Source: a virus
Lineage: Duplodnaviria > Heunggongvirae > Uroviricota > Caudoviricetes
IMG/VR virus record: IMGVR_UViG_3300012662_000013
Location: 43,405 to 107,404 of that record
DNA length: 64,000 nucleotides
Strand: one strand, 5' to 3'
Position 1 is the stretch's first letter; the number at the start of each line of letters is the position of its first letter. The position numbers and the translations under genes were made by a program. Below the pieces are notes generated by a model. It saw only the letters and a program-made list of their open reading frames with translations. It had not been told where the DNA came from and made no database searches. Below are positions 10,278-59,072 of the stretch, piece after piece.

Positions 10278-12928
10278 ATGTATAGTTTTTATGGCGGACA
10301 AAAAGGTTAGGATTTTAAAATAACAAGAATATTTTCTAACCGAGCAATAGATATGGTTGGAGATTTATAGATGCGTTGGACTTCACCAGTAAATGTAGGA
10401 GATTATATATTTATTAATTATGGTGATCCTTCATTTATGAATGAAGAAACTTCTAACTATAATACCAATTTATAGATAGATTTAAAAGCCAGCGGTAAAT
10501 CTTTTACTAATTCATTATGGCAAAAAATTTATGTAGATAGAAATTTAACAATTTCTCCTGAGTTCCCTGAGAATGATAATAATATTTATGTTTTCTTAAA
10601 TTTAGATGAAAGTAATACTGAGGAATACGGTAATTCTTTATAGGAAGTATCAGATATTGAAAGCGAAGAATGTTTTGGGTTTGGATATAGATTAATTGCT
10701 TGTGTAACTGGTGTTACTCCTCGAATTTAGGTATTCCATTAGACAATAGATATTGAAGATGGAGATCCTTATGTTACTTTAAATTTAACTAACCCTGATA
10801 CTCCTAAAATTAAATTTTATTTACAACGTGGATAGTGCATTGAAGATGTTTATAGAAATATTGTAGGATCTTAGGAAGAACCTAATGCTTATTTATACAC
10901 TGATGGTAGAACTTATATAGATAAAAATGGTGAAACAAAAACAGCCACTTTAACTAAGCCTTAGTTGATATTTGATTTGCCAAAGGCCCCTACGTTTTAT
11001 TATGGTATGTTATTTGGTACAGGTCCTTTAAATTTTTATCATAATTTTGGTACTTTATCTAGTAGAGAATATTATTTAAACAATGATACATATAAGATTT
11101 ATAAGAAAGAAATACAGTTAATAACCAGAATTAGTGATTTTTTACATAGAATTTTATTAAATGATGCTGTAACTTATACTTTAGATGAAAGCTCTAAAGA
11201 TAAAGATACTGGTATTTATAGTAATCTTCAATTTGATGATATAAAACATTTTTATTATATTGTAAATAATAATTTTTTTAAAGAAGGCAGTAATTTAAAT
11301 AGATCATTTATATACGTTCAAGAAGAAGACAAAAATGTTATTTTTAATCCATTGTCTAATAAAAATGATGAAGTGACAAAAAATAATGAGAAAAAAATTT
11401 TAAAATTATATAAAGAATTAAAAAATGATTATCATTTATCTGTACGTCCTTATGAACGTTATAAAGAAGATGGTTCAAAAGAGTTAATTCCTTAGTATAT
11501 GTGGACAAATGATGATGCCACTGAAGAAGTTAATACTTATTTATTATCATCTTCTATTTTCAAATCCTTCCCTAATTCGTTATATCCTTTAGGAATTATA
11601 ATAAATGATTTAATAGAAAAATTATTTAGTATTATTGTAGAAGATGAAAATGGAAATCCTTCAATAAAAGAAAATTACATTACTTCTGATGTATCTTATT
11701 CTTTTGAAACTTATAATACTGCTGATTATTTAATTGGAGTATTAGCACAAGGTTCTTATTTAAATGAACATTATTATGATGTATCAAAAGCTTATAAAGC
11801 TGATTTTTATGTTAATGAACCTACTGGTAAATTTTATATTTTAACAAATATAAATGAAATTTATATTGAAGGAAAATATATCGGAGCTATTACCGCCCCT
11901 GCTCCTATTGCTACGACCCAAATGACTTCTAGTTTTTATTTTGATAAAAAGGAACAAAAATATGTAAAAAATCAAAATAAAGTTATTAGTAGTTTAACTG
12001 AAGGTATGGGAGAAAATATTTATCAAGAAGAATTCTTATTTAAATTAGTAAATGATCCTATTACCTTGACAAAAATAAAATAGGTTGTTAATGACGCAGA
12101 TTTTACAATCGGAAAACCTATTCCTTAGAATGAAAATGAATAGTTAGTAAACATAGAAGTTCCTATGCCTATCCATGTATTTACTCCAGGGAGTAGTGGA
12201 TTAAGTGTTTTAAATAATAAAGTAATATGGAATTCTACTAATTATGAAGGACCATTATTTTCTAAAGGAGATCTATTTTTCAATATAACACGATTAGAGG
12301 ATAATAATGCTAACCGTGGTGATGTTTATAGATATAATTAGCTTCCTACAAATACAATCGAAGAATAGAAAGCTATTTTAAAAGATACAATGACTAATAG
12401 TTGGGAATTAGTTGGGAATATAAAAGGTATTCCAGGTATTCCTAATCCTACTAAAATTGTAAATATTACTTTAATTCCTACAACAAATCAAAGTGATAAT
12501 TTTAAAATAACTTATTTAGGCAGTAGTAATACTAGTACTTTTAATTATAAGATAAATAAATCTCCTAATAATGGAGCAGAAGTTAATCCAACTCCAACAT
12601 TAATGGCTATAATTCAAAATATAATTAATGGTAATAATATTTCAGTATCAAATAATGAATTAATTTTACCTGATTTATTAGTAGATACTAATAATGGAGA
12701 AATTTTATTAATAAATTACTTTGCTTCAGAAAATTCTACCCCTGAAAGTTATTGGGGAATTTATACTAATAATTCTTGGAATATAATGTCTTTCTCAGGT
12801 GGCGGGTCTTCATTCTTAAATGATTAGCCTAATAAATTAACGGAATAGCATAAACAATAGGGTTATTCAGTTGATTATTTAGAAACAAAATTTTTAAATA
12901 GCCATTTAATCTGGCATGATTGGGATTA
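10278..12928 (+). CDS. Large structural protein (~883 aa), TAG-containing
   Basis: RBS gaggaggg upstream. ORFs 10965..11495, 11499..12083 and 12390..12827 are in one frame joined by TAG. Ends TAA 12926-12928. Confidence 0.55.
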
Positions 12929-53701: not shown

Positions 53702-54160
53702 TCAAATGCCGTAATCCATATCTAACTCTTCAGCATTCTAACTATCAGTATAAACTGTTAAATTGGTTGTCGAGGTAGAACTAGATGAAGAAGTAGAAGT
53801 CTAATTATTTTTAATTAATTCTTTAATAACTTCATTAAAATCAGTATTATTAGTATAAGTCATATCTAAATATTTTTCTAACTAAGCATCTAATTCTTTC
53901 ATTACAGTATCATATTTAATACCACCTTTTGTATTTTCAAGCATACTTTTTTTATAATAAAATACTTGGCTAACTCCATAAGCCGCCCATGGTAAGGAAG
54001 CTGAGGCAGTTATCCAAGGTAAAGAACCTGTATAATCTCCTTTAATACAAAAGAATGCTAAAGCAATATACAGAAGACTAGTTATCCATATAAGAGCTGA
54101 TTCTTGAATAAGCAGCCCTTTTGAATATTCCCGTTTTGGTTTCTTCTATTTAATATACAT
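53702..54160 (-). CDS. Putative holin / small membrane protein next to the endolysin (~152 aa, 2 transmembrane segments), 4 in-frame TAG
   Basis: RBS aaaggagaaatg. Transmembrane segments ALIWITSLLYIALAFFCI and WITASASLPWAAYGVSQVFYY. Immediately downstream of the endolysin. Confidence 0.4.
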
Positions 54161-54180: not shown

Positions 54181-56476
54181 TTATTTATTATTCATAAGAC
54201 GATAAAGGACTTGAATCATTTCTTCACGAGTCATAAATTTTTTATACATTTTACGGCCTTTTTCATCACCTTTAACTAATCCAGTATTTTCTGCCCAAGA
54301 GCGAGCATCACCAGACCAAGCACTAGGGTCTTTCGTGGCGAGTTCAGTCAAATAGTTATTCATCATTTCATTAAATTTTTCTTGAGTCATATCTTCATCT
54401 TCCTCCTCTACTCCTAATAATTGATTTACTTTTTCGGCGATCTCATAATGTTTATTATATAAATAATCACCGGGACAAGATTTATTAGCAAACCATCTAT
54501 GGACTGTCATATTCTATTCTTCTGGATGACCAATTAAATTTTTATCAGCTTTCCATTTGAGTGATTTTATGTTATTACGTTTACAAATATCAGCAAGTAA
54601 TTTAATTAAAGAATTAAATGCTGCATCAGTCACCTTATAGGGTGATGTAGTATCACTAGCTACTTCAATAGTAATTGCACGATTATCATTTGCGGCATTT
54701 GAAGAACACCAAGAACGGTCTTTTTCTTCAACATACATACCAATTCTACCATCTGGTCCAATACCATAATTAGAAGAAGCTTGTTTAGAAGTTGGTGCAA
54801 ATATACTACCAAGCGTTTCAACCGAACATTGACCTACAACACAATGAATAGTAACTGTGTCAATTACATGATTACGGGGACTAGTTTTATTAGGGCTAAT
54901 CTATGTATAATTTACTAATGAGCTATTAGTTTTGCCATATCCATATCCAGCAGTTGGGTCTTCATCTACAGTATCGCTATCTTTTACAGCAGGGTTATAA
55001 ATAAAACCTAAGAATTTATATCCAGAACCAGCGCCCCAGTTGCCATTTCCTTTTTTGCGTGTAGCATTCCAAAATGGATTTTTGCTACCCCAGCCACTTT
55101 CAGATGTAATAACTTCAGTAGAACTTACTACTTTTTCTACAATAGCTACGTGACCGACGCCATCACTACCCTTTTTAGTAGCGCCACCCTGCCAAACCAT
55201 ACAAGCACCAAGTTTAGGGGTCTATCCAATAGGTATACCAGTATTATTATATTCAGTAAAACGCTCGGCATTTACAGGACTTAAATATTTACAATAGCCC
55301 CAATTGCCGATTTCATTAAATCTTCCGTATGCGTCATTCTGTTGCTTTAAGACCTTAGATATAAGGCGGATAGGACGTTAATCCTATCTCTATGGTTTCA
55401 TTTTTAGATTATAGCCATAGTTCAGACTGTATATTACTTTCATTTAGAAAGAACTCACTTCAATAACAATATTACTATTGTTATCCTGCAGTCGTTAAGG
55501 TTTCTCAATAAAGAGTCTTACCTCGGTCTGAAGTGTCTCCACCCTTTAACCGATATAGTGAGTTATGGGCACTTATAATATTCCCAATGTAAATTTCCAG
55601 ATGTTTTTTGTTTTCCTCTACAACAATTACGTATACCAGCCATACTAATATTTTTCTAGCGGCCAGCTTCTGAAGCACTTTCAAATATTTCATTAGTTTC
55701 AATACATCTTACTGGTTTACTATTTGCTTCAATTACTTTTTGACGTAAATTAGAATTTTTCCACTGCTTTTTTGTAGCTTCAGAATTATGCTCTCGCCAT
55801 TCTTTTGAATCATAAATTTCTCGCATTTTTTCTTTTATTATCGGGTTATTCATTGCTTCTTTCGTTTTATTTGAAATTAATTTTTTTTGTTCTTTAGTAC
55901 GAGTTTTTCCTTTATTTTTATGGCCGCTCTATTTCATTTTTTCTAAAGCTTGTTCTGTGAAAGTAATATTGTCTATTCCGCCACTCTATTTATTGTATCC
56001 GCAATCTGGATTACACAAGTCATATTTTTCTACAAATTCTTTTTCTAATTTTCCAGCTTCTTCTTTGGTTAAATTATTAAATAAAATTTTATGCTCAAAA
56101 TTGTCCCATCCGTATTTCTTAATAGCATTGGTAAAATGCTAGTTAGTTTCATAATGGGTTCCATTTTTCCATCGTAAGTTAGGATTATTACCATATTTAG
56201 TAATTCCTATATATCTTTTATTGTTTATTTTATTTATATGTATATAAACACAATAATTGTTTTCCAAAGTTAAATCATTCCCTTATATTTATTTTCTAAT
56301 AAATATAAAGTTTAAGAATTTGTAATTATAAAATTTTACCCCACGCAATTGGAAAGTACATTGCATTTGCTATCAGTCGGGTTTCCCTTAATAGCATAGG
56401 AATAGCCGCCATTAGCTCTTGTAATGTAATATTTATTACCAGCTTCTGGTCGTGTTGTTCTCATTTTAAAAGCCAT
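54181..56476 (-). CDS. Multidomain endolysin: CHAP peptidase plus Amidase_2 (N-acetylmuramoyl-L-alanine amidase), interrupted near its 5' end by a group I intron
   Basis: Exon 1: RBS plus ATG 56476 (MAFKMRTT..SNCVG, then TAA plus ggggtaaaatttt). Exon 2 from ~55395: CHAP ..GNWGYCKY..TPKLGACMVWQ..GHVAIVEKV..ITSESGWG (ORF 54901..55200), then amidase ..VTIHCVVG..GHPEE[TAG]..HRWFANKSCPG (ORFs 54514..54738 and 54181..54510). Confidence 0.55.
55395..56338 (-). mobile_element. Group I intron in the endolysin gene carrying a GIY-YIG homing endonuclease gene
   Basis: The 5' end ggggtaaaatttt resembles gagggtaaaatctcg (dnaE intron) and ggtaaaatctgcc (late-gene intron). The structured 3' region is 55400-55560. 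Confidence 0.45.
55563..56267 (-). CDS. GIY-YIG homing endonuclease with NUMOD-like and C-terminal HTH tail (~234 aa), 4 in-frame TAG
   Basis: ..NNYCVYIHINKINNKRYIGITK..YDLCNPDCGYN..GHKNKGKTRTKEQKK..KPVRCIETNEIFESASEAGR[TAG]KNISMAGIRNCCRGK.. ORF 55656..55853 is a piece. TTG start after aaggga. Confidence 0.55.
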
Positions 56477-56489
56477 TATTAATCTCCTT

Positions 56490-56528
56490 TCTCTTATATA
56501 AAAAGAGAAGAAGGTTGCCCTTCTTCTC
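56490..56528 (-). terminator. Hairpin terminator (gagaagaagg/ccttcttctc) after phoH, before the endolysin RBS
   Basis: 10-bp stem plus tttttata. Confidence 0.55.
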
Positions 56529-59072
56529 ACATTTGTTCTGCTAATTCAGCAATTTTAGAACGATGAATTTGTTTTAATTCAACTTCACCATATATATTAT
56601 TATTACGTAATACCTCTGATGCACGACGCATACCATTATTTAATCCAGAAAAATTAATATCATCAACCTGAGTTTTTAAATCGCCGTCGATAATACAAAT
56701 ACTATCTTCGCCAATACGTTGAAGGCTTAATTTCATAAGGCCAATATCCATATTCTACGCTTCTGAGATATAAATACCTGCACGCATACCTGTTGTGTCA
56801 TAACCACGAATATCTGATAAGGGTAGCAAAACTAATTTATTTTCATCAATTAATTTTTCCACCATCATTTTATCTCCAAGCTTACTACTTAATAGATTAC
56901 CGATTTGGCTATCTAAAAGTTTTTCATCACGAGTGCCGGGGTAAACAAAACTTTATAACTTTCATTATAAAACTGACTATATCTTAATTTAAACTATTTT
57001 TTAAAGCAAGATAAATATTATGTTTGCGCTTTAAGAATCTCGGACAATTGTTGTATAAAATATCTAAAATATGAAGAACTTGTAAACGTCCTCGCCATTG
57101 TGTGTGCCAAGCACTGGTATAGAAATTTTTATTCTTTTTTTCAATTCCTGTTAAAGAATTTATTAAATTCTAAAAATCTATCACTTCTGTTTCGTGGTAA
57201 GCGGTATAATTAATAGAGACATCTGTACTATGATTAGAACTACAATATAAAGAACCATCTCCATCAAAAAGGCCTAAAGCAAATGCCGGTTGGAATTCTA
57301 AAGGAATTTTTTCATATGGAATATGGTTTACATTATAAGTTTTTTTAGGAATAATATTATAATTAGCTAAATCCTAAAAAATTTGTTCATCAGTAAATTC
57401 TATTGAACAACAAGTACTATTAGGACGAATATTATAAATTATTTTACAATCTAATTGTAAATCTTCTTTAAACTTTTCTAATATCTCTTTGTCACATTCC
57501 TGTAGCTATAATCTAATACGTCCTGTTGTTTTTAATTTATCAACACAGCCATCAGTAAATAAAAAACCTAACCAGTAAGCTTTTTCTGGTTTATCTATAA
57601 TAGAAAAATAATTACTATTAATACGTCGATTGACTCTATTTAATGTTTTTAATTCAAGATTCATTTCAGACATTAAATTTTTGATAGTTTCTTCTGAGGC
57701 ATTAAAATATTTAGCAATATCTTTTAAAAAAGAACCTTTATTTAACATTTCTTTAAGTTCTTTTTTTTGCTCTAATGACCATTCTCTTTTTTTTCTTCCA
57801 CCTCTAATAGTAATATTATTCTCTTTCAGAAGTTTATTTATTTGTCGTCTATTAAAAGAGGGATATTCTATTAATAATTTATTAATTGAATATCCATTTA
57901 GATATTTTTTTATAATTTCTTCTTTCAAACTTATTCCTCTTTTATTATATATATAAAATTTTAAGGCATAAGTTTTTCAGTTCTTGTCCAAAATTTTTCA
58001 GTTTAAATCCCTTGCGCTTCGGCCTAAGCCTACTCTACTTACTTCCACTGTATAGTGTGCTTTCGATAGTCGATGAGCCTTTCCCTATTCGGGACTTGGT
58101 TGCTGATTGTCCAATCCAATTAATTTTTAAACATTCACACTTCGATTTATTTCATTCGTATGTTGTAGTTTAATCGGCTCTAAGGGTGTTCCAGCAATTC
58201 ACAAGGTTTTACTTGAGCCTTACCCTTTAAATTAACCCAAGTTTTGCGGAATTTTTAGTAGCAACAGTATTACAAAATACAATTATTTTATCAATTTTAT
58301 TTCTTTCAAGAGCATTTAATAAAAATGCTAATGATAAAAATGTTTTACCTGAGCCGGCTGGCCCTTTAATCATAGTAATTTTATTATTTAAAAAGCTATC
58401 AACAGCTAAAGCTTGATAAGGATCATTTTTAAAGGGTTTTACATTACCAAAATAGGTAGAATTTAAATTACCATAAGAAATAGTTCTATATGTATCACCA
58501 TCCCATACTATTTTGTCTATTATTTCTTTCTCTTGGTTATAAATAATAGCGTATTGGTTAATTAATAAATTAAATTTATTAATTTTTAAATTTTGATATA
58601 GTTCAATAATTTCATCTTCATTTAAACTTACTTCAATATATCCGCTATATGGGTCATGACGTTCTTCCTCAATAGATGATACATTTGATAAAAATAATTT
58701 AGCAATACATTTTAAAGTTAAATCATTAGTAATAAAATTATCAATAGGATGGCTCTTATTATTTTTATTATAACTTAATGCAGTTGCTAATATTTTCATA
58801 TCATTAGTTATTGATAAATCATATTTTCGTATAGGTTTTATCATTTTTTCTTTATAGATAATTACTTGACATAAGTCAGGGTTATCATTTAAAGCTCTTA
58901 ATAACTAACGAGCAGTATATTTTGTATTAGCATCTTTATTAGCTGATGTTTTAATATTTTCTAACTCATCTAATGTAATAGATGAAATTATAATCTATTC
59001 ATTTTTATCTTCCAATAAAGTTCCCTTAGTTAATAAACTACAAGTGTCATAAAAATTATATATCATCTTCAT
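56527..59072 (-). CDS. phoH: PIN-domain plus PhoH-like ATPase (YlaK-type) split by a group I intron; TAG at the Q of DEAQN
   Basis: N-terminal PIN domain (..FYDTCSLL..ITLDELENIK.., 2 TAG), PhoH Walker A GPAGSGKTFLSLA (ORF 58227..58844 ends ..NSAKLG). Exon 2 from ~56949: FVYPGTRDEKL..YISEA[TAG]NM..KLSLQRIGEDSICIIDGDLKTQVD.. (ORF 56527..56751). Confidence 0.65.
56950..58235 (-). mobile_element. Group I intron in phoH carrying a double-motif LAGLIDADG homing endonuclease gene
   Basis: The exon-1 frame hits TAA 2 codons after KLG. 58040-58230 is structured non-coding sequence with a gatagtcgat-like core. Confidence 0.5.
56984..57928 (-). CDS. LAGLIDADG homing endonuclease (~314 aa; AYWLGFLFTDGCV and LGLFDGDGSL), 3 in-frame TAG
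   Basis: ORF 57506..57928 (TTG start, RBS aagagga) continues through TAG to TAA 56984-56986. N-terminal HTH resembles that of the dnaB-intron endonuclease. Confidence 0.6.

What the first reader, a model, noticed from the sequence alone, without database searches (positions are those of the whole stretch)
54181..56476. Endolysin (CHAP plus Amidase_2) interrupted by a homing-endonuclease intron, with a downstream 2-TM holin candidate
The only RBS and ATG for the lysin is at 56476 (46 codons, ending in TAA followed by ggggtaaaatttt, the same intron-start signature as the dnaE and late-gene introns). The CHAP domain has no start of its own and resumes ~1 kb downstream after a GIY-YIG endonuclease gene (NUMOD/HTH tail) and ~160 nt of structured RNA. 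Introns in lysis genes are uncommon; splicing could gate lysis timing. A 152-aa membrane protein with two transmembrane segments (53702..54160, 4 TAG) follows the lysin.
Basis: partly seen in the sequence, partly recalled or inferred. Interest (0 to 1): 0.6.

Follow-up and report, generated by a model that had tools for sequence, protein, structure and literature searches.

The report
Phage lysin gene split by intron
The cell-wall-degrading enzyme gene of this gut phage is interrupted by a 1003-base self-splicing (group I) intron carrying its own mobility nuclease gene; the call is correct, but this kind of element is already well documented in phage lysin genes.

Summary
Confirmed and largely ordinary. 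On the minus strand, a CHAP + Amidase_2 endolysin (430 aa once joined) is split after the first base of Tyr47, three codons past the catalytic Cys44, by a 1003-nt insertion (56337..55335). Closely related phages carry the same gene uninterrupted (430 aa). Two others carry a 245-246-nt ORF-less intron at exactly this site. The window's version is that intron plus a 758-nt cassette encoding a GIY-YIG homing endonuclease, inserted in the P1 loop.

The 236-nt core (55570..55335) belongs to a large phage intron family. Across 106 distinct sequences 92% of cells are paired, 57 of 61 pairs show compensatory changes, and the unmodelled P3/P7 pseudoknot is 100% paired. My covariance model also hits the self-splicing Twort orf142 introns. 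Rfam's group I model misses the whole family.

The 13-mer "intron signature" is not enriched and no sibling intron of this family is in the window. Lysin-gene introns are not uncommon (20 of 205 Staphylococcus phages; frequent in S. thermophilus phages). The structured part is about 236 nt, not 160.

TAG is read as a sense codon, probably Gln. The "holin" rests only on position and topology. This is a new member of a known kind.

The parts
56484..56490 (-). Shine-Dalgarno sequence AAAGGAG, 7 nt upstream of the lysin ATG
   Evidence: Read directly from the sequence.
56505..56528 (-). Terminator-like hairpin followed by a T-run, between the PhoH-like gene and the lysin gene
   Evidence: Consensus scan: 10-bp stem with 5 GC pairs. 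This is a pattern match only.
56338..56476 (-). Lysin exon 1: 46 codons plus the first base of Tyr47. It contains the catalytic Cys44 of the CHAP domain.
   Evidence: Translation. The alignment to uninterrupted homologues has N43 C44 V45 G46 invariant. The intron-less relatives L001 and L159-L162 are colinear up to 56337 by blastn, and the codon alignment places the junction after 56338.
55335..56337 (-). Group I intron, 1003 nt. The 5' splice site follows U56338 and the 3'-terminal G (omega-G) is at 55335.
   Evidence: Exactly this stretch is absent from intron-less alleles. The same site is occupied by 245/246-nt ORF-less introns in L158 and L169.
56337..56341 (-). P1 5' strand: exon GGGU (56341-56338) plus the first intron base A56337. 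U56338 forms the U.G wobble at the splice site.
   Evidence: Homology to L158, L169, TR-TP1, L049 and others. P1 forms in the minimum-free-energy fold. The exon end and IGS covary across the family.
55575..56332 (-). 758-nt HEG cassette inserted in the P1 loop (L1). It is absent from the otherwise 93%-identical introns of L158 and L169. The boundaries are ambiguous by 1-2 nt.
   Evidence: blastn and direct comparison: window AAAAU[cassette]AAGUGCCC against L158 AAAAUAAGUGCCC.
55563..56267 (-). GIY-YIG homing endonuclease ORF: TTG start, 234 aa, 4 in-frame TAG, stop TAA at 55565-55563. Its last three codons (AAG UGC CCA) and the stop codon lie in ancestral intron sequence; UGC CCA overlaps the internal guide sequence.
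   Evidence: Pfam GIY-YIG 27.2 bits (cutoff 22.6); phrog_314 homing endonuclease E = 1e-36. Coordinates.
55567..55571 (-). Internal guide sequence UGCCC (P1 3' strand)
   Evidence: It sits in the same register relative to P3 as the IGS of family members (GCCCU, GCCAG, GCCGA...) that covary with their exons. It is the only candidate at the homologous position.
55335..55570 (-). Ribozyme core, from the IGS to omega-G.
- P3 55562-55557 / 55459-55454
- P4 55552-55548 / 55528-55524
- P5 55543-55540 / 55535-55532 (GAGA loop)
- P6 55522-55520 / 55501-55499
- P6a 55515-55513 / 55506-55504
- P7 55493-55489 / 55429-55425
- P7.1-type hairpin 55484-55476 / 55471-55463 (GUAA loop)
- P8 55451-55447 / 55441-55437
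- P9 55420-55415 / 55395-55390
- P9.1 55388-55382 / 55375-55369
- P9.2 55366-55362 / 55357-55353
   Evidence: RNAalifold on 6 sequences. Covariance model R1 and 133 matches. Pair counts: 92% paired, 57 of 61 pairs with two-sided changes, P7 pseudoknot 100% paired. Compensatory changes among the window, L158 and L169. P9.2 is from inspection only.
54181..55334 (-). Lysin exon 2: the rest of the CHAP domain (His108, Glu125), a linker, Amidase_2 and a C-terminal region. It has 3 in-frame TAG and ends in TAA.
   Evidence: Pfam CHAP 42-126 and Amidase_2 202-336 on the joined protein. PHROG endolysin families give E = 7e-59. Uninterrupted 430-aa orthologues occur in L159-L161.
53702..54160 (-). 152-aa membrane protein immediately downstream of the lysin, with 4 in-frame TAG. 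It is a holin candidate by position only.
   Evidence: Strong hydrophobic segment at about aa 21-40 and a weaker one at about 47-68. Conserved synteny in all relatives. No Pfam or PHROG family.

Best explanation
A mobile group I intron of the phage IA2-like (Twort-type) class interrupts the CHAP + Amidase_2 endolysin gene of a TAG-recoded gut phage whose host is probably a Clostridia member.

How it works:
1. The pre-mRNA is translated from the single RBS and ATG at 56476. Without splicing, translation stops after 46 codons.
2. The intron folds into the P3-P9 core.
3. Its guide sequence UGCCC (55571-55567) pairs with the exon end GGGU plus A56337 to form P1, with a U.G wobble at the splice site.
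4. Guanosine-initiated transesterification removes 56337..55335 and ligates ...GGGGU to ACGCA....
5. This recreates the Tyr47 codon and a 430-aa lysin whose catalytic Cys44 (exon 1) and His108 (exon 2) are reunited.

The intron is a composite. An ancestral ORF-less intron of about 245 nt is still present at the same site in relatives L158 and L169. It acquired a 758-nt cassette in its P1 loop that encodes a GIY-YIG homing endonuclease. That enzyme presumably cuts intron-less or HEG-less alleles during co-infection and spreads the element by recombinational repair.

What is shown: the insertion and its exact borders; the allele series; the conserved junction; the covariation-supported fold; membership of an RNA family that includes proven self-splicing introns; the domain content.

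What is inferred: actual self-splicing; endonuclease activity and its target; the direction of the HEG gain; any regulatory role.
For: 1. Precise insertion. The intron-less relatives L001, L159, L160, L161 and L162 align colinearly and lack exactly 1003 nt. Their lysins are 429-430 aa, matching the predicted spliced product.
2. Junction. The ligated sequence SNCVGYAYGRFNEIG reproduces invariant residues of 12 aligned homologues, drawn from 1571 hits. Pfam CHAP spans the junction.
3. Boundary rules. U precedes the 5' splice site and G ends the intron.
4. ORF-less alleles at the same site. L158 has a 245-nt intron (R1 227 bits) and L169 a 246-nt intron (R1 225 bits). Neither was used to build the model.
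5. Structure. 39 of 63 alifold pairs are compensatory in 6 sequences. On 106 distinct sequences 92% of cells are paired, against 34-39% when partners are slid; 57 of 61 pairs change on both sides; 0 of 500 shuffles reach the observed values. The unmodelled P7 pseudoknot is 100% paired, with GC:37 and AU:36 at one pair.
6. Selection within this intron. Substitutions among the window, L158 and L169 lie in loops or are compensatory: P7.1 C-G to U-A, P8 U-A to C-G, P9.1 A-U to G.U.
7. P1. The exon end and IGS covary across family members: AGGGU/GCCCU, UCUGGU/GCCAGG, UCGGU/GCCGA, GAGGU/GCCUC and others. P1 appears in the minimum-free-energy folds.
8. Link to proven ribozymes. R1 hits the Twort orf142 introns I2 (36 bits, E = 5e-11) and I3 (23.5 bits), and weakly the S. 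thermophilus phage DT1 lysin intron (18 bits).
9. HEG. GIY-YIG scores above the Pfam cutoff and matches a PHROG homing-endonuclease family at 1e-36.
10. No alternative expression route for exon 2.
11. The intron core is more conserved than the exons: 93.4% against 79-86% between the window and L158.
12. The HEG-plus allele recurs in at least 24 contigs (54 blocks of the assembly collection), so a phage carrying it is viable.
Against: - No RNA data exist here, so splicing is inferred.
- Rfam's Intron_gpI model gives no hit at gathering score, nor at E <= 10 over the intron region or E <= 0.5 over the whole window. The same model also misses compact members of the family, and published work notes that Rfam and GISSD models miss phage introns (PMC11878797).
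- P1 has only 5 pairs, and in the window it must close a loop of 765 nt (56336..55572). The proposed loop-closing extension helix is only a free-energy prediction.
- The contigs with the HEG-plus allele are about 100% identical to the window. They represent one clone and give no independent evidence that the HEG is under selection.
- The HEG start codon (TTG, with a weak and distant SD) is uncertain.
- The NUMOD-like match is below its cutoff.
Confidence: 0.92

Rival explanations
1. The gene is split by a free-standing endonuclease gene and there is no splicing. The 46-aa peptide and a separately translated C-terminal fragment either reassemble, or only the amidase domain is used. This would resemble split genes caused by free-standing homing endonucleases in T4-like phages.
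For: The HEG cassette is a separable unit that is absent from L158 and L169. Relatives of the HEG are never found next to introns of this family. The amidase domain lies entirely in exon 2.
Against: - A 245-nt non-coding element with a covariation-supported group I fold remains at the site when the HEG is absent. It still splits the ORF in L158 and L169.
- Exon 2 has no in-frame start codon with an RBS.
- The catalytic Cys and His are on different exons.
- The borders obey the U / omega-G rule.
Confidence: 0.03
2. The ribozyme was disabled by the 758-nt insertion in its P1 loop. The lysin gene would then be a pseudogene in this strain, and lysis would rely on another enzyme encoded elsewhere in the genome of about 150-190 kb.
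For: - Among the 22 best-scoring intact family members, the window is the only one with an ORF in L1. All others have P1 loops of 7-21 nt.
- The ORF's last codons overlap the guide sequence.
- All HEG-plus contigs are one clone, so the allele could be recent.
Against: - Both exons are intact with no frameshifts or TAA/TGA stops, and exon 2 differs by at most 1 nt among contigs from different samples.
- The core is 93% identical to the ORF-less alleles, and its differences are compensatory.
- The ends of the cassette can pair to close the loop.
- HEGs in P1 loops are tolerated in other group I introns (PMC4964425).
- The strain recurs in many samples.
Confidence: 0.04
3. The insertion is another kind of intervening element, such as an intein, a group II intron or an IS-like insertion.
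For: None beyond the bare fact that the gene is interrupted.
Against: - The insertion is not in frame and begins with a stop codon, so it is not an intein.
- No reverse transcriptase was found, and no group II family reached Rfam's thresholds.
- No transposase was found. Terminal repeats were not searched for.
- The group I core is positively identified.
Confidence: 0.01

Closest known systems
[quoted passage not shown] 2000; DT1, TP-EW; cited in PMC3952083)
   Same: A group I intron of about 1 kb with an endonuclease ORF interrupts a phage lysin gene (TP-EW: 1016 bp, 205-aa HEG). HEG-deleted derivatives coexist in related phages. The 5' half of the core (P3-P6 and GUAACGACU) aligns to my model (18 bits).
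   Different: The lysin family and insertion site differ. The 3' half of the core is td-like (GAUAUAGUC P7'), so it is not the same RNA family. In DT1 the ORF remnant lies downstream of the P3' strand and before P7', not in L1. Those phages use the standard genetic code.
Endolysin-gene introns of Staphylococcus phages (phage K/812/G1 LysK-type CHAP + Amidase_2 + SH3b lysins; PMC6507118, PMC6445280)
   Same: The lysin has the same catalytic architecture (N-terminal CHAP, central Amidase_2) interrupted by a group I intron that often encodes a HEG. Of 205 staphylococcal phages, 20 have such endolysin introns.
   Different: The CHAP family is different: the nearest PDB match here is a Peptidase C51 domain protein, 9eum. 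There is no SH3b domain. I did not test whether the LysK intron belongs to family R1. My recollection that the LysK intron carries an HNH-type enzyme is from memory only.
Phage Twort orf142 introns I2/I3 (self-splicing IA2 ribozymes; record AF132670.1)
   Same: The helix order P3-P4-P5-P6-P7-P3'-P8-P7'-P9-P9.1 is the same, and J6/7-P7 (AACGACU) and P7'-J7/9 (AGUCUGAAC) are conserved. R1 scores 36 and 23.5 bits.
   Different: They are only distant relatives, against more than 220 bits for the true lysin-intron alleles. They are ORF-less and lie in a tail gene.
Thomasclavelia phage TR-TP1/TP2 tape-measure-gene intron (PQ571309; unannotated)
   Same: It belongs to the same RNA family (R1 153 bits for the 3' part and 36 bits for the 5' part). 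The IGS register is the same, and there are compensatory changes in P3, P5, P6, P7.1, P8 and P9.
   Different: It has an HNH endonuclease ORF in the P6a loop rather than a GIY-YIG ORF in L1, and it interrupts a different host gene.
T4 td intron / I-TevI (from general knowledge)
   Same: A GIY-YIG homing endonuclease is encoded in a loop of a phage IA2 group I intron, inside a conserved, functionally critical coding region.
   Different: The I-TevI ORF is in P6a. There is no detectable PDB-level sequence similarity of this HEG to I-TevI.

Membership tests
Group I self-splicing intron | The 5' exon ends in U, which forms a U.G wobble with an internal guide sequence (P1) | tested here: met
   Exon GGGU (56341-56338) pairs with GCCC (55570-55567), and A56337 pairs with U55571. 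The IGS is at the homologous position to family members whose IGS covaries with their exon.
Group I self-splicing intron | The intron ends in G (omega-G), and excision is exact and restores the reading frame | tested here: met
   G at 55335. Removing 1003 nt gives the same 430-aa protein as uninterrupted orthologues and the invariant NCVGYAYGRF motif.
Group I self-splicing intron | A conserved core P3-P8 with the P3/P7 pseudoknot, supported by covariation | tested here: met
   92% of cells paired; 57 of 61 pairs with two-sided changes; 0 of 500 shuffles reach the observed values. P7, which is not in the model, is 100% paired with compensatory changes in 3 of 5 pairs.
Group I self-splicing intron | A guanosine-binding G-C pair in P7 | tested here: inconclusive
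   G261-C421 and A262-U420 of P7 are invariant in 73 of 73 sequences. This is consistent with a G-binding site, but its identity cannot be shown from sequence.
Group I self-splicing intron | Recognised by the curated model Rfam RF00028 | tested here: not met
   No hit at gathering score, none at E <= 10 over the intron region, and none at E <= 0.5 over the whole window. The control shows the model also misses compact members of the family, whereas R1 links the family to the Twort introns. The failure therefore reflects model coverage (see PMC11878797).
Group I self-splicing intron | Homology to an experimentally proven self-splicing intron | tested here: met
   R1 hits Twort orf142-I2 (36 bits, E = 5e-11) and I3 (23.5 bits, E = 4e-7) with the helices colinear.
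Group I self-splicing intron | Autocatalytic splicing with GTP and Mg2+ | not testable with these tools
   Requires in-vitro transcription and splicing, or RT-PCR.
GIY-YIG homing endonuclease | A GIY-YIG catalytic domain | tested here: met
   PF01541 scores 27.2 bits (cutoff 22.6) over residues 4-82, and phrog_314 gives E = 1e-36. By eye: CVY...YIG, R32, H38, an acidic residue at about 74-76, N92.
GIY-YIG homing endonuclease | A C-terminal DNA-binding module (NUMOD/HTH) | tested here: inconclusive
   I-HmuI NUMOD-like scores 16.2 bits, below the 27-bit cutoff. The PHROG alignment covers the full length.
GIY-YIG homing endonuclease | Site-specific cleavage of the intron-less allele | not testable with these tools
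   Needs enzyme expression with TAG changed to CAG, and a cleavage assay on L160-type target DNA.
CHAP + Amidase_2 endolysin | A CHAP Cys-His catalytic pair and an Amidase_2 domain in one polypeptide | tested here: met
   CHAP E = 1.2e-11 and Amidase_2 E = 1.2e-19 on the joined protein. C44, H108 and E125 are invariant. PHROG endolysin E = 7e-59.
Holin | A small membrane protein with at least one TM segment, next to the lysin, and belonging to a recognised holin family | tested here: inconclusive
   Adjacent and syntenic in all relatives, with one strong and one weak hydrophobic segment. No Pfam or PHROG family even at E <= 10. Unrelated to the ORF in the holin position of non-recoded relatives.
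TAG-to-Gln recoded phage (code 15-like) | In-frame TAG in essential genes, aligned to Gln in relatives, plus a suppressor tRNA | tested here: inconclusive
   26 of 39 long TAA/TGA-free stretches contain TAG, 157 in total. The lysin's TAGs align to Q, K and Q in TAG-free orthologues, and Q84 is invariant. No tRNA gene lies in this 64-kb window.

The most novel reading that the evidence does not exclude
Lysin maturation may be coupled to the phage's genetic-code switch through the intron.

The TAG-recoded HEG sits in the P1 loop, and its last codons (UGC CCA) overlap the internal guide sequence. While TAG still means stop, ribosomes would terminate at the first in-frame TAG of the HEG (codon 43), far from P1, so the intron could fold and splice. 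Once TAG is read as Gln, ribosomes would translate through the guide sequence of any still-unspliced precursor and unwind P1. Splicing, endonuclease production and translation of the lysin (which has three TAGs of its own) would then be linked in time.

A weaker novel reading is that this allele series captures a HEG invading an ORF-less intron at an unusual site (L1), which makes it a natural test case for how mobile introns are assembled.
Probability: 0.1. Interest if true: 0.6.

Novelty: new member of a known kind. Interest (0 to 1): 0.3.

Why it matters
Practically, the lysin of this widespread gut phage lineage will be mis-annotated unless the intron is removed and TAG is read as a sense codon. 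Assembly gene callers currently report a 46-aa ORF, HEG fragments and an N-terminally truncated 'amidase' that lacks the CHAP catalytic cysteine.

The work also exposed a large phage group I intron family: more than 130 copies in 99 viral loci (the window itself was also in that search). Rfam RF00028 does not detect it, which adds to the published concern that phage introns are under-counted (PMC11878797).

The three allelic states in one lineage (no intron, ORF-less intron, and intron with a HEG in the P1 loop) illustrate that the ribozyme and the nuclease are independent mobile elements. That principle, however, is already established.

Tried and rejected
1. Rfam at gathering score on the whole window, at E <= 10 on the intron region and at E <= 0.5 on the whole window: no group I hit. 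It also missed compact family members, so it is uninformative here.
2. The best other site, at 12730, shows no intron features.
3. blastn of the intron ends against the window: no sibling copy. R1 on the window: a single hit.
4. An exact 21-mer from the core searched in viral contigs: 0 hits. Gapped degenerate motifs were needed instead.
5. blastn of the region against phage records: only amidase-domain and weak HEG hits, and no related genome in INPHARED. tblastn of the CHAP part: only two distant records.
6. The Staphylococcus phage f2b1 hit: not an intron context, and R1 scores 12.9 bits. Dropped.
7. PDB search with the HEG: nothing, so no detectable similarity to I-TevI.
8. HEG relatives in viral and metagenome contigs: at most 40% identity over the full length, and none adjacent to an R1 intron. 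The origin of the HEG is unresolved.
9. Holin candidate: no Pfam or PHROG family at E <= 10, and unrelated to the holin-position ORF of L003.
10. Alternative IGS sites within the intron (GCCUUAU, GUCCUAU and others): rejected because they are rich in wobble pairs and lie inside the P9.1/P9.2 hairpins, not at the homologous position.
11. RNAalifold's pairing of CAGUCUG with the 3' end CAGAUUG: replaced by the P7 pseudoknot, which covaries.
12. Foley et al. 2000 (PMC111580) is not held in the library, so it is cited only through PMC3952083. A 'LysK intron' text hit turned out to be a company name.
Full report
**Observation**

All features lie on the minus strand. The lysin gene starts at ATG 56476, preceded by AAAGGAG (56490-56484). 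It reads 46 codons and then meets TAA. TAG is plainly a sense codon in this genome:
- The lysin has 3 in-frame TAGs, the endonuclease ORF 4 and the downstream membrane protein 4.
- Across the window, 26 of 39 long TAA/TGA-free stretches contain TAG, 157 in total.
- In TAG-free orthologues the lysin's three TAG positions are Q, K and Q. Q84 is invariant in the homologue alignment.
- No tRNA gene is in the window.

Joining 56338 to 55334 gives an in-frame 430-aa protein. Pfam CHAP covers residues 42-126, spanning the junction at residue 47, and Amidase_2 covers 202-336. PHROG endolysin families score up to E = 7e-59. The ORF in between (56267..55563, TTG start, 234 aa) has a GIY-YIG domain above the Pfam cutoff and matches phrog_314 'homing endonuclease' at E = 1e-36. 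Its NUMOD-like tail is below threshold.

**Is it really an insertion in one gene?**

A search with the joined CHAP region found 1571 homologues. The best are 72-78% identical, uninterrupted, and cover 91-100% of the query. In the alignment, N43 C44 V45 G46 A48 G50 R51 F52 N53 E54 are invariant and Y47 is nearly so. The predicted ligation (T|AC, forming Tyr47) therefore recreates a conserved motif three codons after the catalytic cysteine. His108 and Glu125 lie in exon 2.

Nucleotide comparison with close relatives settles the matter. L001 (91% identity) and L159-L162 are colinear with the window and lack exactly the 1003 nt 56337..55335. Their lysins are 429-430 aa. The same comparisons revealed a second, unrelated insertion in the upstream PhoH-like gene (58233..56946).

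**What the insertion is**

Rfam found no group I intron. A marginal blastn hit led to Thomasclavelia phage TR-TP1. There, a homologous element splits the tape-measure gene and carries an HNH ORF. Two degenerate motifs taken from the shared core retrieved more than 120 viral loci.

A six-sequence alignment gave an RNAalifold structure with P3, P4, P5, P6/P6a, a P7.1-type hairpin, P8, P9 and P9.1. Of 63 pairs, 39 are compensatory. A covariance model, R1, found 133 matches in a search of the window plus 99 viral loci. On the resulting alignment of 106 distinct sequences:
- 92% of cells are paired, against 34-39% when partners are slid.
- 57 of 61 pairs change on both sides.
- No shuffle out of 500 reaches the observed values.
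- The P7 helix, which forms the group I P3/P7 pseudoknot and was not in the model, is 100% paired with a 37:36 GC/AU split at one position.

R1 also matches the self-splicing Twort orf142 introns I2 (36 bits) and I3 (23.5 bits), with the helices colinear. It matches weakly the 5' core of the S. thermophilus phage DT1 lysin intron. Rfam's model misses even compact members of the family, which agrees with published remarks on its coverage of phage introns (PMC11878797).

**Anatomy: a composite element**

Relatives found through the downstream membrane protein gave the key allele series:
- **L158** (211-kb contig) has a 46-aa ORF, a 245-nt gap and then the rest of the lysin. R1 scores that gap at 227 bits.
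- **L169** (a Clostridia MAG) has a 246-nt version at the same site.
- Both read ...GCGUGGGGU|AAAAU...GCCCAUAACUCACU... This is a compact P1 hairpin (GGGUA/UGCCC, with a 7-9-nt loop inside the A-U pair) followed directly by P3.
- **The window** has the same intron, 93.4% identical in the core against 79-86% in the exons, plus a 758-nt cassette (56332..55575) inside that loop.

The HEG ORF reads out of the cassette into ancestral intron sequence. Its final codons UGC CCA overlap the guide sequence.

Substitutions among the three alleles are confined to loops or are pair-preserving: P7.1 C-G to U-A, P8 U-A to C-G, P9.1 A-U to G.U.

Across the family, the exon end and the IGS covary: AGGGU/GCCCU, UCUGGU/GCCAGG, UCGGU/GCCGA, GAGGU/GCCUC and others. 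Of the 22 best intact members, only the window has an ORF in L1. Where HEGs were seen in other members, they interrupt the core: TR-TP1's HNH ORF lies in the P6a loop, and several other loci match R1 in two separated parts. Free-energy folding recovers P1 in L158. In the window it also recovers an extension helix, UUUAUAAU/AUUAUAAG, that would close the big loop.

Distant relatives of the HEG (at most 40% identity) are never adjacent to R1 introns. The nuclease and ribozyme lineages are therefore independent. The simplest history is invasion of an ORF-less lysin intron by a HEG cassette.

**Alternative expression routes**

Exon 2 has no in-frame start codon with an SD sequence. Promoter-like sites are at chance level, 16 against 15.9 expected. 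A terminator-like hairpin (56528-56505) separates the PhoH-like gene from the lysin gene.

**Population context**

The exact exon-1 ORF occurs in 54 blocks of the assembly collection, on contigs up to 194 kb with the same layout. These contigs are about 100% identical to the window. They show that a phage carrying this allele persists, but they count as one clone.

Exon sequence immediately flanking the intron is identical in the window and L158. It differs at about 8 synonymous sites from intron-less alleles. This fits co-conversion, the pairing requirements of P1, or both.

Lysin relatives in Oscillibacter, Ruminococcus and Oscillospiraceae genomes suggest a Clostridia host.

**Holin candidate**

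The 152-aa ORF (54160..53702) is syntenic in every relative. It has one strong hydrophobic segment (about aa 21-40) and one weaker one (about aa 47-68). It matches no Pfam or PHROG family even at E <= 10, and it is unrelated to the holin-position ORF of non-recoded relatives. It remains a positional candidate only.

**Comparison with what is known**

Group I introns in phage lysin genes are well documented:
- They are 'frequently' found in S. thermophilus phages; TP-EW has a 1016-bp intron with a 205-aa HEG (PMC3952083, citing Foley et al. 2000).
- 20 of 205 Staphylococcus phages have them in endolysin genes (PMC6507118).
- Kayvirus introns occur in lysis genes (PMC6445280).

Recoded intron endonucleases in alternatively coded phages, and the idea that recoding delays their expression, have been described (bioRxiv 10.1101/2021.08.26.457843). 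HEGs in P1 loops occur in fungal mitochondrial IA1 introns (PMC4964425).

**Verdict**

This is a new member of a known kind. Its modest points of interest are the L1 location of the HEG, the complete allele series, and an intron family that Rfam does not detect. The suggestion that splicing times lysis is untested.

Noticed in passing
window 56946-58233 (minus strand): A second, unrelated group I-like intron (1288 nt) interrupts the PhoH-like gene. The exon ends in U (58234) and the intron ends in G (56946). It has td-like P7 strands CGACUAUC / GAUAUAGUC and carries a LAGLIDADG-type ORF. It is polymorphic: present in L159 and L163-L166, absent in L001, L158 and L160-L162. Neither R1 nor Rfam detects it.
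   Followed up: partly
viral loci L019-L155 (e.g. L049:6369-6626, L022:1641-1901, L098 with three copies): A large phage group I intron family gives 133 model matches in a search of the window plus 99 viral loci. Rfam RF00028 detects none of the compact members tested. Several contigs carry 2-3 copies, and many copies are split by ORFs inside the core, as in TR-TP1's P6a loop.
   Followed up: partly
L001:1595-2186: The closest intron-less lysin allele (94% aa identity) has an in-frame TAA (...NATRK*GNGNWG...) where the window has AAA. It could be an assembly error, a pseudogene or something else.
   Followed up: no
L158:11901-12611: A relative with a 211-kb contig has a GIY-YIG ORF splitting gyrB (DNA_gyraseB / GIY-YIG / DNA_gyraseB_C). 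This HEG is unrelated to the lysin-intron HEG (BLASTP E = 0.05), and R1 finds no family intron there.
   Followed up: partly
window 56343-56347 and 55330-55334 (minus strand): The 5' exon sequence UGCGU is complementary to the first five bases of the 3' exon, ACGCA. This holds only in the intron-containing alleles (window, L158, L169); intron-less alleles have different synonymous codons. It could be chance, a co-conversion tract or an exon-exon helper pairing.
   Followed up: no
window, whole (e.g. 53702-54160, 54181-55334, 55563-56267): TAG is used as a sense codon genome-wide: 157 in-frame TAGs in 26 of 39 long TAA/TGA-free stretches, aligning mostly to Gln. No suppressor tRNA gene lies in these 64 kb. 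The membrane protein next to the lysin keeps a TAG at codon 5 in the relatives L158 and L160.
   Followed up: partly
L005 (PQ571309.1 27382-32457), about 1144-2666: The tape-measure gene of Thomasclavelia phage TR-TP1 is split by an unannotated intron of the same family that carries an HNH ORF. The GenBank record annotates the two halves as separate genes ('tail length tape measure protein' and 'hypothetical protein').
   Followed up: partly
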